Assembly (NCBI GenBank): GCA_963810275.1
Contig: CAWENF010000014.1
Span: forward strand, 1 to 64,000
DNA: 64,000 nt
Origin: an uncultured archaeon
GTDB taxonomy: Archaea > Thermoproteota > Bathyarchaeia > Bathyarchaeales > Bathycorpusculaceae
Direction: 5' to 3'
Positions 27,333 to 63,174 of this stretch are shown here, piece after piece. The notes under the pieces were generated by a model. The model was not told the origin of the DNA. It saw nothing but the letters and a program-made list of their open reading frames with translations, and made no database searches. The position numbers and the translations under genes were made by a program. Every line of letters begins with the position of its first letter. Position 1 is the first letter of the stretch.

Positions 27333-28346
27333 ATGGGAAAGCGCTACATAAAAAGGAATGCGGATTTGGGTGAACATAAAATAATCCAGCTTATCCAGAG
27401 TCGCTTAACCCCCATGCCAGACATAGCGATAGGGTTTGGCGACGACGTTTCAGCAATAAACGTCAACAGCAGCCAAGTTGCCGTGCTTAAAACTGACATG
27501 CTTGTCGCAGAAACCGACGTGCCCCAAACAATGAGCCTATACCAAACCGCGCGAAAAGCCATCGTCATGAACGTAAGTGACTTTGCTTCCAAAGGCGTCC
27601 GACCGCAGGCGGCGCTAGTTGCTTTGGGGTTGCCCCGAGGCGTCAGTAAACATGACGTGGAAGAAATCGTTGGGGGCTTAGACGACGCAGCAAGAGAATA
27701 CGGTGCCTTCGTTGTGGGCGGAGACACCAACGAAGCATCAGACCTCACCATCTCGGTTATGCTGTATGGAGTTGCAGAAAAAAACAAGCTGATGCTTCGA
27801 GGGGGCGCCAAAGCAGGCGACATATTGGCAGTGACAGGAGAATTCGGGAACCCAACGGCGGGACTTTATGCATTACTGCATGGGTTGAAAGCGCCAGGGA
27901 TGGTTGTAGGCGAGAGACTGCTGGAAGCTATCTTTTTGCCCAAAGCGCGACTATCTGAAGGGCTGGCGCTCGCAAAGGTTGGGGCAGTTGGGGCGTCTAT
28001 GGATTCAAGCGACGGCTTAGCATCAAGCATCCACGAGTTGGCTCGTCAAAGCGGCGTCGGTTTCGCAGTGGACAGAACACCATTGGCAAAGGATGCATCG
28101 GGGTTTGCCAGAACCAATGGGTTGGACCCGTTTGATTTGGCGTTTTACGGCGGCGAAGAATACGAGTTAGTGCTTACGATTAAGCCTGAAAAGTGGAGCC
28201 AAGCAGAAGAGGCGATCAAAGCTGCGGGCGGGCAACTCCTACCGATTGGCAAAGCCACAAAAAACTCTAAAATCTTCTTTGAATCCGCTGGTATAAAACG
28301 TAAGATTGAGGCGCGGGGTTGGGAGCACTTCAAAAGCAAAGTTTAG
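27333..28346 (+). CDS. thiL: Thiamine-monophosphate kinase
   Basis: GEHKII, GDDV, KTDMLV, NVSDFASKG, GGDT, MDSSDGL, GGEEYEL and GWEHF. Confidence 0.95.
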   Translation: MGKRYIKRNADLGEHKIIQLIQSRLTPMPDIAIGFGDDVSAINVNSSQVAVLKTDMLVAETDVPQTMSLYQTARKAIVMNVSDFASKGVRPQAALVALGLPRGVSKHDVEEIVGGLDDAAREYGAFVVGGDTNEASDLTISVMLYGVAEKNKLMLRGGAKAGDILAVTGEFGNPTAGLYALLHGLKAPGMVVGERLLEAIFLPKARLSEGLALAKVGAVGASMDSSDGLASSIHELARQSGVGFAVDRTPLAKDASGFARTNGLDPFDLAFYGGEEYELVLTIKPEKWSQAEEAIKAAGGQLLPIGKATKNSKIFFESAGIKRKIEARGWEHFKSKV

Positions 28347-28908
28347 GTTGACGGTCCAATGTGTAATTAATGACTGTTATGCATGCCTTGGCGAGATACG
28401 GTGTCTTGCCGAGGCTTATTTTTTCCCCAAACCGCAAAACAAAACTCTCCACACGTTTAGGCAGCCCAACATGGTCACCCAACACAAAAAGGCTATTCTC
28501 TGCAAACTCCACATTGGAAATATCCTTACCGCCTTCCTCAAGAACATACACTGGCTGGGTTTGGGCTCTTGCTTTAAGTAATGTTTCAAACGAGGTTTTG
28601 TCTTTAGTTATGCCTGGATGAGTTTTGCCGGCGAGGACTTTTTTGAGGATTTGCTGCCAAGTTTCCATGTCGGTGCGGACGTCGTAGAGGGTTTCGCCGT
28701 TGATCTGAATATGAATGGGCGGGTTAGGGGCACCGTTTAGCACAGCGTGGAAAGATACGTCCCTACGGATACCATGGCTGAGGAATAAACTACTAACAAT
28801 ACATTCGTGCACTATGTCTAGGCGACCTGCGCCATGTAGACTTGTAAAGTTGTGGTCGGTTTTTCCCATGCGTGAGAACAGAATGAATTCGCGAGGCAAA
28901 GCTATCAC
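28330..28908 (-). CDS. trmY: tRNA (pseudouridine54-N1)-methyltransferase, SPOUT fold
   Basis: GRLDIV...LFLSHGIRRDV, LEEGGKDI, FVLGDHVG and ISLGKTPY. Confidence 0.9.
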   Translation of the reverse strand: MIALPREFILFSRMGKTDHNFTSLHGAGRLDIVHECIVSSLFLSHGIRRDVSFHAVLNGAPNPPIHIQINGETLYDVRTDMETWQQILKKVLAGKTHPGITKDKTSFETLLKARAQTQPVYVLEEGGKDISNVEFAENSLFVLGDHVGLPKRVESFVLRFGEKISLGKTPYLAKACITVINYTLDRQPKLCF

Positions 28909-60877: not shown

Positions 60878-61240
60878 TCAGTGTCTTTCAGTTCTTATTC
60901 CTACACGCATGCCTTCAAGATCTGAATCGGTAAGTTCTTCTTTAAGAATAACAGACTCTCCACTGATAGAGCCCATCTTGCTTGTTGGCAATGGCACGAT
61001 CTTCTTTTGTAGAAACCCCAGCTTTTTCACGTAGATTTGAAGTCTGCATCATCTTTACATCGACTACGTTAACAGTCCAGTTATTGTCGTCAATTTCAAC
61101 GTCTTCGACTTGGCCTATTCTTAATCCGCGTTTGGCATGCCTGTACGCACATAGGAGAGTTGGATTCGCTCTATGGCAAGGTAGTTTCTCTCTGATGAAA
61201 GTAAAGTGCGAATAAGAGCCAGTTGCGTGTTGTCATCCAA
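60878..61240 (-). pseudogene. Fused remnants: DUF202/YidH-like N-terminus plus PRC-barrel fragment
   Basis: 61240-61121 encodes MDDNTQLALIRTLLSSERNYLAIERIQLSYVRTG. An overlapping frame gives GLRIGQVEDVEIDDNNWTV, then shifts to KKIVPLP...SISGESVILK. Confidence 0.55.
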
Positions 61241-61469
61241 AAAAGTCAGAAACTCCTTCACTTAAAAGATAGATTTTGTGAACTTTAAAACGTTGCAAAC
61301 GCGTTTAGCCAGCAGAGTTTTGTTGGTTTTTTAGTCTGTATCATGAGTTATCAAAGCTTTTCTGTGGTGTAGCAAGATTTACTGGTTTGATGCGCATTTC
61401 GGTTAGTAAAAGAAGAAGCAAGCGGAGAAGCAAAACCTTAATGTTGCTTATGCTTCCGCCGCTGGTCTC

Positions 61470-61860
61470 TCGGGCGTTAGTCGGTTACCTCATAAGCTGG
61501 CTGTATTATTCGCGTCAAAGAACATGAAAAACCCGACGTAACACCGAAAAAACGCGGAAACGAGGAAGGCTTAACTTTTATCCCGCGTTTGACAAAGAAC
61601 GCCTATCACAAGAAATCCGCCGGTAACGACGATGCCGTGCGCTTGGGTAGGGCTTGTTGTTGATGGTATGCAATCACAACGCCATTTATACCTTGTAGAG
61701 AGAAGTATTTCTTGCGAGAAATAGCCATCCAAGAGGTACACCCAAAGCTTGGCGGGTCAACTGTTAACTTGGGCATCAATCGCTCAAGACCCTAAAGGAA
61801 GGATTAGGGATCGCCTTTTGATTTGTGCCCTGTGTTTAACCGTGGTTGGTTCGCCAAGCC
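61470..61860 (+). ncRNA. Candidate large structured non-coding RNA (family not recognised)
   Basis: Five consecutive helical domains with G-U pairs favouring the + strand, and no ORF of 60 aa or more. Helix coordinates are in the findings. Confidence 0.6.
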
Positions 61861-61890
61861 TACTTTTAGTTACCCCTCCCCTCTAAGGGT

Positions 61891-62304
61891 ATGTCGTATC
61901 TATGTAGCAGTTATATGCTTTTTAGAAGTATTCATAGCTCCGTGAAAACCGTGAGTTATAAACAGCTAATGCATCCAAAAGTAAGCAAAGCCGAAATTGA
62001 AGTTTTCAAAACCCTCAGCACTCAGGGCTTAACAGGTGGCTTGGTCACCCAGCAACCTATTATCCTCAAATCCACCATACCCGACTTTTGCTGGGTGGAG
62101 AAACGCAAAATCATCTACCTTGACGGCAACCCAGTGCACAAAAAAGACAAGCAACTAAGAAAAGACGAGGAAATCGACGAGTTACTGGAGCAGCAAGGCT
62201 GGGATGTGCTACGCATTCCGTATGATCCACCTTTGACTGAGAAGGGTTTGCAGAAGGTAATGGCGCAGATTAAGCGATTTCTAAATGTCATCGACGATGA
62301 GTAA
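61891..62304 (+). CDS. DUF559/Vsr-like PD-(D/E)xK endonuclease domain protein
   Basis: SKAE, PDF, IYLDGNPVH and RKDEEIDELLEQQGWDVLRIPY. The true start may be GTG 61942. Confidence 0.8.
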   Translation: MSYLCSSYMLFRSIHSSVKTVSYKQLMHPKVSKAEIEVFKTLSTQGLTGGLVTQQPIILKSTIPDFCWVEKRKIIYLDGNPVHKKDKQLRKDEEIDELLEQQGWDVLRIPYDPPLTEKGLQKVMAQIKRFLNVIDDE

Positions 62305-62490: not shown

Positions 62491-63174
62491 GTGACAGAAA
62501 TAGGCGACTCTCCGCATGTAACCTTCAAGCTTGGAACTGGAGAATCAAAAAGCGACCGCGAAATGCTGAAAAAGAAAAAAGATCAATACGAAAAGAATTG
62601 GTGCAAAACAGGAGCAAAAGTCCTCAAGAAAATAGAGTACTTATGCGGTGACTCATTCCCCAAGAAAGCTACACAAGACGGCATAACCGTCATTCTCCAC
62701 AAGAAGACCCCTAAAAGCCAAGTCAACGCCTACCTCAACGAACAAACGCCTCTTGAAATTCACTTGTATTTAAACAGGAACGACAAAACAGCAACAATGA
62801 AGGAACTCTTAATCCGTATGCTTACCCAATCGTTTATCCATCAACATTACGAGTTTCATTTTCGGATAAGAGAACAAACTCTTTTTGAAGACATCTTAGC
62901 AGACGAGTTGGTGACTTCTAAAATCAGTTTTATGGTTATAGGTCGGAAGCTGGGGCGGGCAAACTGCGCTAAAGCACTCGACGAAGCGGTAGAGCAGACG
63001 ATTTATCGATTATCACAGAAATCAGCGCGAGACAAGCTAACGGAGTTCACTTACTTTTTTTTTCAGGATTCTCAAGTTAAGGGTAAACAGCAGAAAACTG
63101 ACGTTTTAGCGAAACGTGAAGAGTTGATTGCAAAGTTGCTTGAGCTTCTGCCAAAAACAGTAATCATCGAATAA
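62491..63174 (+). CDS. Hypothetical protein
   Basis: 227-aa intact ORF. No motif recognised. Confidence 0.75.
   Translation: MTEIGDSPHVTFKLGTGESKSDREMLKKKKDQYEKNWCKTGAKVLKKIEYLCGDSFPKKATQDGITVILHKKTPKSQVNAYLNEQTPLEIHLYLNRNDKTATMKELLIRMLTQSFIHQHYEFHFRIREQTLFEDILADELVTSKISFMVIGRKLGRANCAKALDEAVEQTIYRLSQKSARDKLTEFTYFFFQDSQVKGKQQKTDVLAKREELIAKLLELLPKTVIIE

What the first reader, a model, noticed from the sequence alone, without database searches (positions are those of the whole stretch)
61470..62304. ~400-nt multi-domain structured RNA candidate directly upstream of a DUF559/Vsr-like nuclease
Seen: the ORF-free region 61470-61860 is largely pairable in consecutive domains. (A) TCGG.GTTA.GTCGG 61470-61484 pairs with CCGAC.TAAC.CCGA 61533-61547. 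(B) AAACGCGG 61550-57 pairs with CCGCGTTT 61583-90. (C) CGGTA/TGCCG forms a hairpin at 61621-37. (D) A multibranch domain is closed by TTGGGT 61643-48 and ACCCAA 61740-45; it contains GTTGTTGAT/ATCACAAC, TACCT/AGGTA and TATTTCT-TGCG-AGAAATA. (E) A ~113-nt rod starts with 17 contiguous pairs, GCTTGGCGGGTCAACTG 61747-63 with TGGTTGGTTCGCCAAGC 61843-59 (five G-U), then GGGCAT.AATC/GATT.GTGCCC, capped by CCCTAA-AGGAAGGA-TTAGGG. The G-U pairs favour selection at RNA level on the + strand. Established: I could not find the conserved RNase P (GAGGAAAGUCC, ACAGAA), SRP helix 8, or group I/II intron domain signatures. Large RNAs beside nucleases are known in OMEGA/HEARO and type III toxin-antitoxin systems. 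Inference: this may be an undescribed archaeal large ncRNA, possibly partnered with the co-oriented nuclease. Caveat: a TATA-like TTATATG near 61911 could drive the nuclease independently from GTG 61942, so the linkage may be coincidental.
Basis: partly seen in the sequence, partly recalled or inferred. Interest (0 to 1): 0.82.

Follow-up and report, generated by a model that had tools for sequence, protein, structure and literature searches.

The report
New small RNA gene in Bathyarchaeia
About 154 bases of the flagged 400 are a real, previously undescribed small RNA gene of one group of uncultured soil and gut archaea, with its own promoter, a rod-shaped fold kept by evolution and an unchanging free 5' end; it does not look like a partner of the nuclease gene next door.

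Summary
Only part of the finding holds up. The real feature is a ~154-nt RNA gene at 61714-61867 (+). On 68 aligned relatives, 35 of 39 rod pairs show compensatory changes.

They are not conserved and fold no better than shuffles (z -0.42). Domain D is the promoter.

No Rfam family matches. SRP RNA and RNase P RNA lie elsewhere in the genome.

The RNA was found in 100 of 120 genomes of one Bathyarchaeia genus. Weak relatives occur in one sister genus. It was not found in 135 genomes of other families of the class.

Diverged paralogs keep the rod but carry other tails, and they share a palindromic promoter element.

The DUF559 gene has its own promoter. It occurs without the RNA in 10 examined genomes of the genus and in three other genera. 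In two genomes it is broken beside an intact RNA. Partnership is therefore not supported.

Function is unknown. The best guess is a trans-acting small RNA that works through its tail.

The parts
61654..61679 (.). Palindromic upstream promoter element: TTGTTGTTG (61654-61662), a 8-nt spacer, then CAATCACAA (61671-61679).
   Evidence: Conserved as sequence in 19 of 19 aligned relatives. A strict version joined to a TATA box lies upstream of 51 of 65 family members, paralogs included. That strict version has only 14 sites in the whole own genome.
61685..61690 (+). TATA box TTTATA of the RNA gene.
   Evidence: CCATTTATA is nearly invariant in the alignment, and a variable ~20-nt stretch follows it. 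It lies 21-24 nt before the start of the model match in 47 of 51 motif-bearing members. Its role as a promoter is inferred from the usual archaeal TATA-to-start distance (established knowledge).
61714..61746 (+). 5' tail, predicted single-stranded: GCGAGAAAUAGCCAUCCAAGAGGUACACCC plus a 3-nt linker. Predicted transcription start at T61713 or G61714.
   Evidence: Almost every tail position is invariant in 20 of 20 sequences of A1 and nearly so in the main-type rows of A2. The neighbouring protein gene is only 66-79% identical at DNA level. One contig of a metatranscriptome run (X3) ends at 61713.
61747..61859 (+). P1 is 61747-61762 with 61844-61859. P1b (GUUAA/UUAAC) is 61763-61767 with 61836-61840. 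P2 is 61771-61776 with 61825-61830, and 61778-61782 with 61819-61823. The apical hairpin P3 is 61790-61795 with 61804-61809, with loop AGGAAGGA. A conserved internal U-run lies at 61816-61819.
   Evidence: MFE and z-score. The same architecture is seen in 20 of 20 single folds. On A2 (68 sequences), 85.2% of cells pair, 35 of 39 pairs have changes on both sides, and the covariation score is 0.320 against at most 0.106 for slid partners; 0 of 500 shuffles reach it.
61860..61867 (+). 3' end CUACUUUU; the T-run 61864-61867 is the presumed archaeal terminator.
   Evidence: CCTACTTTT is conserved in the main type and in most paralogs. Its role as a terminator is inferred.
61911..61916 (+). TATA-like box of the DUF559 gene. 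Not part of the RNA gene.
   Evidence: A TTTATTAAG / TTATAT block is conserved before the gene in the relatives. It is also kept in genomes that lack the RNA.
61951..62304 (+). DUF559-family gene, 117 aa. The GTG at 61951 is the start that fits the relatives. A neighbour, not a shown partner.
   Evidence: Pfam PF04480 scores 35.7 bits against a cut-off of 20.6. Vsr TIGR00632 scores 14.7 bits against a cut-off of 97.85. No solved relative was found by sequence.
61387..61640 (+). Remains of a small membrane-protein gene.
   Evidence: Most of 19 relatives have a 54-90-aa ORF here with the motifs KRKRSK..LLPALIFI..GW and ..VTF.P..EE. In the window the N-terminal part is in one frame and the 'EEGLTFIP' part in another.

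Best explanation
61714-61867 (+) is a stand-alone gene for a ~154-nt small non-coding RNA. It is transcribed from its own TATA promoter, which carries a palindromic upstream element, and it ends at a T-run. The RNA has two modules. The first is a 33-nt 5' tail that does not change across the genus. The second is a ~113-nt rod (P1, P1b, P2, apical hairpin) that evolution keeps paired, with a conserved internal U-run. I think it acts in trans through the tail. The tail would recognise a conserved partner, most likely by base pairing with another RNA. The rod and the U-runs would serve as a stabilising, protein-binding scaffold, for example for Sm-like proteins. Shown: conservation, covariation, independence from DUF559, and membership of a small family with other tails. 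Inferred: promoter, start, terminator, single-strandedness of the tail, and the mode of action. My confidence that it is a real, independently evolving RNA gene is about 0.9. My confidence in the trans-acting, tail-mediated mechanism is about 0.35-0.4.
For: Conservation starts at ~61652 and has the layout of a gene: upstream element, invariant TATA, variable ~20 nt, invariant tail, covarying rod, T-run. Covariation: 35 of 39 pairs have double changes, the score is 0.320 against at most 0.106 for slid partners, and 0 of 500 shuffles reach it. The first structure gave 31 of 35 pairs. G:U cells (220) outnumber A:C cells (133) at paired columns, which favours the + strand. The tail shows no third-position variation although the adjacent coding gene is 66-79% identical. 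Homologues differ in length by 1-2 nt, and only about half have an AUG after the tail. Both points argue against coding. One 151-nt contig of an RNA library (X3, a relative, about 91% identity) spans the predicted RNA and ends at 61713. Distribution: 100 of 120 genomes of the genus, and 65 of 73 high-quality ones, mostly in single copy. Paralogs and sister-genus relatives keep P1, P1b, P2, the U-run, the 3' end and the promoter element, but carry other tails conserved within each subgroup.
Against: No target was found. An ungapped scan of the own genome that allowed G:U pairs gave runs of at most 16 nt, about what chance gives. A gapped duplex scan gave a best non-self energy of -36.8 kcal/mol with the next at -36.1 and -35.7, so there is no outlier. 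16S rRNA gave -26.7 against shuffles at -23.9 +/- 2.1 (1 of 30 as good), and 23S rRNA was at the shuffle mean. Sites that pair the tail's CAU with an AUG are not enriched at ORF starts (11% of 97 against a 22% background). There was no signal against four other small-RNA candidates. Invariance over all 33 nt is more than a seed needs and would fit protein recognition equally well. Expression rests on a single depth-2 contig from a relative, and DNA carry-over in that library is not excluded. The start and end of the RNA are not mapped. Related genomes are not independent, so the counts overstate the support.
Confidence: 0.4

Rival explanations
1. Protein-binding RNA (an RNP scaffold or decoy, as 6S, Y or 7SK RNAs are). 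The invariant tail and the internal loops would be read by a protein, with no base pairing to a target.
For: All 33 tail positions are fixed, and no complementary target stands out. The internal U-run and the GUUAA/UUAAC helix are conserved in sequence even in paralogs.
Against: No partner protein is indicated by gene neighbourhood outside the genus. No K-turn or other known protein-binding motif could be read in the loops. The subgroup-specific tails on one scaffold look more like exchangeable specificity modules.
Confidence: 0.25
2. Cis-acting leader or attenuator of the DUF559 gene. The RNA and its weak T4 run would control read-through into the nuclease gene.
For: Same strand, and the T-run (61867) ends 83 nt before the GTG at 61951. 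99 of 100 hits of 71.8 bits or more have the DUF559 gene 80-510 nt downstream (read by eye from the coordinates). All 9 genomes without DUF559 also lack the main-type RNA.
Against: A conserved TATA box lies between the two genes, and it persists where the RNA is missing. Intact DUF559 genes without any RNA upstream were found in 10 of the 12 RNA-less, DUF559-bearing genomes that I examined. DUF559 orthologs are present in genera g23 (4 of 4), g28 (2 of 2) and g26 (6 of 6), where the RNA is not found or lies on another contig. The RNA is intact beside a broken DUF559 in G132 and G022. Paralogs sit in unrelated contexts.
Confidence: 0.08
3. RNA partner of the DUF559 nuclease: a guide, a scaffold or a type III-like antitoxin.
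For: Adjacency in the genus is nearly universal, and both are lost together in 9 genomes. The 'tail plus scaffold' layout resembles guide RNAs.
Against: The same points as for the leader model apply. The protein is only 117 aa with a bare DUF559 domain. There are no tandem repeats as in ToxI. A nuclease toxin could not persist without its antitoxin in 10 genomes and in three genera. Sister-genus RNAs are not next to DUF559.
Confidence: 0.06
4. A DNA-level palindrome, such as a MITE-like remnant, a recombination site, or merely the terminator hairpin of the upstream gene.
For: The rod folds nearly as well on the minus strand (z -4.11). The CM also scores a few loci weakly on the opposite strand. 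Several diverged copies exist per genome.
Against: One orthologous copy sits at a fixed locus in ~100 genomes. Compensatory changes include many G:U pairs. There is an invariant asymmetric 5' tail, and a TATA box and a T-run in the right places. The own genome has no near-identical copies. The tail 24-mer has no hit in viral contigs.
Confidence: 0.04
5. A ~400-nt multi-domain RNA spanning 61470-61860, as first described.
For: The listed hairpins A-D can be drawn.
Against: 61470-61712 gives z -0.42. There is no nucleotide conservation upstream of ~61652. That region overlaps a conserved small protein gene. The TATA box lies inside 'domain D'.
Confidence: 0.02

Closest known systems
Archaeal trans-acting small RNAs (for example the Methanosarcina mazei sRNAs that pair with mRNAs; recalled, not from a call)
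   Same: Small size, own promoter, oligo-T end, a single-stranded conserved stretch next to stable stem-loops, and lineage-restricted distribution.
   Different: No sequence or CM relationship to any Rfam family. The conserved stretch is 33 nt rather than a short seed. No target was found.
Guide-plus-scaffold RNAs next to nucleases (OMEGA RNAs of IscB/TnpB, HEARO)
   Same: A variable or specific single-stranded end joined to a conserved structured scaffold, and a nuclease-fold gene next door in this genus.
   Different: The neighbour is a 117-aa DUF559 protein, not IscB, IsrB or TnpB. The RNA is 154 nt and shows no HEARO/Rfam match. The neighbour occurs without the RNA and the RNA without the neighbour.
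Rod-shaped protein-binding RNAs (6S RNA, Y RNA)
   Same: A mostly double-stranded rod with conserved internal loops and a U-rich 3' end.
   Different: There is no large central bubble, and the 5' end is a free 33-nt tail instead of pairing with the 3' end. No Rfam match. No such RNAs are known in archaea (recalled).
Type III toxin-antitoxin (ToxI RNA / ToxN)
   Same: The order RNA gene, terminator, then a nuclease-like gene on one strand.
   Different: No tandem repeats. The downstream gene has its own promoter and exists without the RNA.

Membership tests
Any Rfam 15 family | Covariance-model match at or above the gathering score. | tested here: not met
   The window at gathering gives only 4 tRNAs, all elsewhere. 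61200-62000 at E up to 10 gives one 12.1-bit chance match against a gathering score of 60. Fourteen loci of relatives and paralogs at E up to 0.1 give only one tRNA.
RNase P RNA / SRP RNA | A match to the archaeal models, and being the genome's copy. | tested here: not met
   Good copies lie elsewhere in the same genome: RNase P RNA at C1:69324-69617 (187.2 bits) and SRP RNA at C2:50736-51051 (150.5 bits).
tRNA (including intron-bearing) | Cloverleaf found by ARAGORN or the Rfam tRNA model. | tested here: not met
   0 genes in 61300-62000. No tRNA hit there.
C/D box sRNA | C box RUGAUGA and D box CUGA. | tested here: not met
   Reading 61714-61867 shows no UGAUGA and no CUGA.
H/ACA box sRNA | A large pseudouridylation pocket and an ACA box just 3' of the lower stem. 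| tested here: not met
   The 3' end after P1 is CUACUUUU, and internal loops are 1-6 nt.
OMEGA / HEARO guide RNAs | Encoded beside IscB, IsrB or TnpB, with the HEARO model matching. | tested here: not met
   The neighbour matches only DUF559 in Pfam. There is no Rfam match.
Type III antitoxin RNA (ToxI-like) | Tandem direct repeats upstream of the toxin gene. | tested here: not met
   Tandem Repeats Finder gives 0 rows in 61300-62000.
DUF559 (PF04480), for the downstream protein | Pfam match above the gathering score. | tested here: met
   35.7 bits against a cut-off of 20.6, E 8.3e-9, profile positions 8-108 of 109.
Vsr mismatch endonuclease, for the downstream protein | TIGR00632 match above the cut-off. 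| tested here: not met
   14.7 bits against a cut-off of 97.85. No solved relative was found by sequence. Catalytic residues were not examined.
Independent archaeal RNA gene (working class) | Own promoter, defined ends, and a transcript. | tested here: inconclusive
   A TATA box and a T-run are conserved at the right places. One RNA-library contig ends at 61713. The ends are not mapped with raw reads.

The most novel reading that the evidence does not exclude
The rod is a common scaffold and the 5' tail an exchangeable specificity module. This Bathyarchaeia lineage would then hold a small set of 'tail plus rod' RNAs: the main type, at least two paralog types at a DnaG / ParB-like locus, and a sister-genus type. 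All would be driven by one dedicated palindromic promoter element and would serve one effector protein encoded elsewhere. That would be an archaeal RNA-guided system of a kind not yet described.
Probability: 0.12. Interest if true: 0.8.

Novelty: new member of a known kind. Interest (0 to 1): 0.5.

Why it matters
Bathyarchaeia are abundant, uncultured archaea of sediments, soils, peat and termite guts. Three full-text searches found no paper on regulatory or structured RNAs of this group, and Rfam holds no matching family.

This locus offers three things:
- A well-supported candidate for a new RNA family, with about 100 orthologs and compensatory changes in 35 of 39 pairs.
- A 33-nt invariant element that must contact something conserved.
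- A promoter element shared with other small-RNA candidates, which points to a regulon.

It also corrects a tempting 'large RNA plus nuclease' reading: the nuclease link is conserved gene order within one genus, not a demonstrated system.

Tried and rejected
Known families:
- Rfam at gathering and at permissive thresholds gave nothing.
- ARAGORN gave nothing.

Copies in the own genome:
- BLAST found only the locus itself plus chance matches of 15-33 nt.

Targets of the tail:
- The ungapped scan allowing G:U pairs gave runs of at most 16 nt.
- The gapped duplex scan of both strands of the genome gave a best non-self hit of -36.8 kcal/mol at C14:177052-177086 (-). That region has no convincing ORF on that strand, and the hit is not an outlier.
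- 16S rRNA of the own genome and 23S rRNA of relative G014 showed no significant duplex. One search timed out and was rerun as a smaller job. No 23S rRNA was found in the own assembly.
- Pairing at start codons: 11% of 97 sites lie at ORFs of 60 aa or more, against a 22% background.
- Pairing with four other small-RNA candidates of the genome was not significant.

Other ideas rejected:
- Small leaderless ORF or RBS-plus-AUG reading of the tail. The AUG is present in only about half of the relatives, there are 1-2-nt length changes, and there is no third-position variation.
- Pseudoknots of the tail with the apical loop. About a third of the species replace the GA-rich hairpin by a short CCUGA...UCAGG hairpin while the tail stays the same.
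- Pairing of AGAGGUA with the 3' UACUUUU, proposed by RNAalifold. It cannot be tested because both sides hardly vary, and 3 of 20 sequences break one pair.

Other checks:
- Viral contigs gave 0 matches to the tail 24-mer.
- RNA runs X1 and X2 cover only the DUF559 gene (61921-62199) and 61500-61637. They say nothing about the RNA.

Full report
OBSERVATION. They are not equally meaningful.
- The rod 61745-61862 folds at -47.1 kcal/mol against -31.9 +/- 3.4 for dinucleotide shuffles (z -4.44, 0 of 200 as good).
- 61470-61712, which holds domains A-D, gives z -0.42 with 60 of 200 shuffles as good.
- The whole 391 nt gives z -2.80 on the + strand and -2.07 on the - strand.
- The minus strand of the rod folds nearly as well (z -4.11), so energy alone does not set the strand.

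WHERE CONSERVATION LIES. BLAST against 60 related genomes matched 29 of 36 genomes of the same genus and 0 of 24 of other genera. The matches start at window ~61652 and run through the DUF559 gene. Upstream of 61652 there is no nucleotide conservation.

Most of the 19 aligned relatives carry there a 54-90-aa membrane-protein ORF that ends 25-73 nt before that point. In the window its N-terminal and C-terminal motifs lie in different frames. So domains A-C sit in a coding remnant plus spacer, and the region is not ORF-free.

GENE ANATOMY. The alignment reads like an archaeal RNA gene:
- an imperfect palindrome TTGTTGTTG-N8-CAATCACAA (61654-61679);
- a nearly invariant CCATTTATA, with the TATA box at 61685-61690;
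- about 20 variable bases;
- an invariant GCGAGAAATAGCCATCCAAGAGGTACACCC (61714-61743);
- a rod with many paired substitutions (61747-61859);
- CCTACTTTT, with the T-run at 61864-61867.

The distance from the TATA box to G61714 is 29 nt from the first T, which is the usual archaeal spacing (established knowledge). The promoter, the start and the terminator are inferred.

A second conserved TATA-like block (61911-61916 in the window) precedes the DUF559 gene. The start that fits the relatives is the GTG at 61951.

STRUCTURE. All 20 sequences of A1 fold on their own into the same rod.

I built a covariance model (R1) and aligned 68 matches from 62 sources to it (A2). Three of those 68 are weak opposite-strand matches at loci already hit. 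I left them in for the pair counts and dropped them for the G:U count and the promoter count.
- With the model's structure, 83.3% of cells pair and 31 of 35 pairs have changes on both sides.
- With a consensus structure that I refined by eye on the same alignment, 85.2% of cells pair and 35 of 39 pairs have double changes.
- The covariation score is 0.320 against 0.028-0.106 for partners slid by 1-3 columns, and 0 of 500 shuffles reach it.

The alignment was fitted to the model and the sequences are kin, so these figures lean towards the structure. The slid controls and examples such as GUUAA/UUAAC changing to GGUGG/CCAUC in one species still make a selected RNA fold the clear reading. At paired columns G:U cells (220) outnumber A:C cells (133), which agrees with the + strand set by the TATA box, the tail and the T-run.

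NOT CODING, NOT A KNOWN FAMILY.
- The tail has no third-position variation, although the neighbouring gene is 66-79% identical.
- An AUG follows the tail in only about half of the relatives.
- Orthologs differ in length by 1-2 nt, from 139 to 166 nt.
- Rfam gives nothing at gathering or at E up to 10, nor on 14 loci of relatives and paralogs.
- ARAGORN finds no tRNA.
- The genome's SRP RNA and RNase P RNA are elsewhere.
- C/D boxes and an ACA box are absent on direct reading. There are no tandem repeats.

TRANSCRIPTION. One search for public runs gave three metatranscriptomes with small shares of the sampled words. When laid on the window, run X3 holds one 151-nt contig of depth 2. It matches 61713-61783 with 6 differences and continues for 80 letters like the ortholog of locus L009. 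It is therefore a relative's copy that spans the predicted RNA and ends at the predicted start. This is weak support: one contig, its length possibly set by the read length, and DNA carry-over not excluded. X1 covers only the DUF559 gene and X2 only 61500-61637.

DISTRIBUTION.
- R1 finds the RNA in 100 of 120 genomes of the genus (65 of 73 high-quality ones). Ninety-eight genomes have a hit of 71.8 bits or more, and two have only a ~47-bit hit.
- In the order it matches 2 of 23 genomes of other genera of the same family, both in genus g26, and 0 of 115 genomes of the other 11 families.
- A broader model (R2) finds nothing in 135 genomes of other families of the class.
- The tail 24-mer occurs in 89 stretches of the species-representative genome collection. 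Of the 80 listed, 69 are titled Bathyarchaeota, Bathyarchaeia or Bathycorpusculum. Eleven bear other labels: 5 'uncultured archaeon', 2 Nitrososphaerota, 1 Thermoproteota, 1 Methanocella, 1 Acidoferrum and 1 Limnocylindrales. I take the last three to be binning errors; that is an inference.
- Viral contigs: 0.

A SMALL FAMILY WITH OTHER TAILS. Weaker matches of 25-47 bits are diverged relatives. They keep P1 (UUGGCGG...CCGCCAA), the GUUAA/UUAAC helix, P2, the internal U-run and the CUACUUUU end, but carry other 5' tails.
- One is the ortholog in G130. It has a changed tail and is still followed by DUF559.
- Two types lie at a DnaG-Toprim / ParB-like-nuclease locus in several genomes, sometimes two per locus.
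- Sister genus g26 has its own tail, kept in three copies, two of them in tandem in L068.
- The own genome has a paralog at C2:123773-123892 (38.4 bits) and a marginal hit at C2:136920-137052 (25.9 bits).
- A short core, AGCCAnC(n)AAG, is shared by several of the tails.

The palindromic promoter element joined to a TATA box lies upstream of 51 of 65 members with a strict pattern and 57 of 65 with a loose one. That strict pattern has 14 sites in the own genome. Three of these precede short hairpin candidates with CU-rich loops, and the others precede protein genes.

THE DUF559 GENE. Its product passes Pfam DUF559 (35.7 bits against a cut-off of 20.6) but not the Vsr model.

For a link:
- By reading the coordinates side by side, 99 of 100 RNA hits of 71.8 bits or more have the gene 80-510 nt downstream on the same strand. 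The exception is a second copy in G085.
- All 9 genomes without the gene also lack the main-type RNA.

Against a link:
- The gene has its own conserved promoter.
- Twelve genomes of the genus have an open DUF559 gene but no RNA hit. I fetched 10 of them, and neither model finds the RNA upstream with filters off, as far as the contigs reach. One of them (G078) shows only a decayed 3' remnant.
- In G132 the gene has four stops and in G022 it is split, yet both have an intact RNA at 154.6 and 151.5 bits.
- Orthologs at 57-77% identity exist in genera g23 (4 of 4), g26 (6 of 6) and g28 (2 of 2). There the RNA is not found, or it lies on another contig.

Within one genus, adjacency is inherited gene order and carries little weight.

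FUNCTION. I could not find what the tail contacts (details under Tried and rejected). The own assembly is 92.6% complete and lacks a 23S rRNA match, so a target could be missing.

I commit to a trans-acting small RNA that works through its tail, with the rod and the U-runs as scaffold (about 0.35-0.4). A purely protein-binding role is the main rival (0.25). Leader, nuclease-partner, DNA-palindrome and 400-nt readings together come to about 0.2.

Two possible alternative pairings exist: tail ACACCC with GGCGGGU of P1, and tail CCAAG with CUUGG of P1. Both sides are invariant, so they cannot be tested by covariation.

NOVELTY AND LIMITS. Three full-text searches returned nothing on such an RNA:
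- 'Bathyarchaeia' + 'non-coding RNA': 1 unrelated paper.
- 'DUF559' + 'structured RNA': 0 papers.
- 'Bathyarchaeota' + 'sRNA': 3 unrelated papers.

I saw the listings and abstract starts only. Subscription journals are not covered. No paper was read, so no supplementary files bear on any claim here.

E-values of my models are rough because of the short calibration. Genome counts are samples of kin, not independent trials.

VERDICT. This is a real, new, lineage-restricted small RNA family of unknown function. The large multi-domain RNA and the nuclease partnership are not supported.

Noticed in passing
G000 contigs outside the window: C2 ~123985-124149 (-), C17 ~28173-28350 (+), C21 ~178467-178640 (+): Three short hairpin candidates with CU-rich loops (CCUCUCUCUUCC-like, complementary to Shine-Dalgarno-type purine runs). 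Each lies behind the same palindromic promoter element plus TATA box as the RNA studied here. The C21 one lies ~1.5 kb upstream of the 16S rRNA gene on the other strand.
   Followed up: partly
L071, L073-L078 (relatives): Paralogous rod RNAs with other tails lie between a DnaG/Toprim-like gene and a ~265-aa ParB-like nuclease-domain gene (DGHHR motif). Two rods per locus occur in L073 and L077. The protein names are my reading of the translations and were not checked against Pfam.
   Followed up: partly
window 61387-61640: A small membrane-protein gene conserved in relatives appears frameshifted or interrupted in the window. The N-terminal part is in one frame and ends at the TGA at 61525-61527. 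The conserved 'EEGLTFIP' part is in another frame.
   Followed up: partly
G132:C18:117626-117977 and G022:C2:36496-36844: The DUF559 gene carries several stops (G132) or is split in two pieces (G022), next to an intact copy of the RNA.
   Followed up: no
window 62491-63174: A 227-aa ORF downstream of DUF559 has no Pfam or NCBIfam family. A homolog follows DUF559 in L070 as well.
   Followed up: no
window 60878-61261 (-): Three short minus-strand ORFs in different frames (61121-61261, 60942-61052, 60878-61030) look like pieces of one broken gene. The two that I scanned have no Pfam hit.
   Followed up: no
L068 1501-1652 and 1859-2000 (-): In a genome of sister genus g26, two copies of the related RNA lie in tandem ~200 nt apart. 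Each has its own promoter element.
   Followed up: no
L009 940-1051: A 112-nt tRNA match (35.8 bits) suggests an intron-bearing tRNA gene. It lies just beyond the DUF559 gene in that relative.
   Followed up: no
window 61500-61637: A 151-nt contig of RNA run X2 matches this stretch with no differences and then departs at 61637. A very close relative of the window's organism is therefore present in that library. This says nothing about the RNA gene.
   Followed up: no
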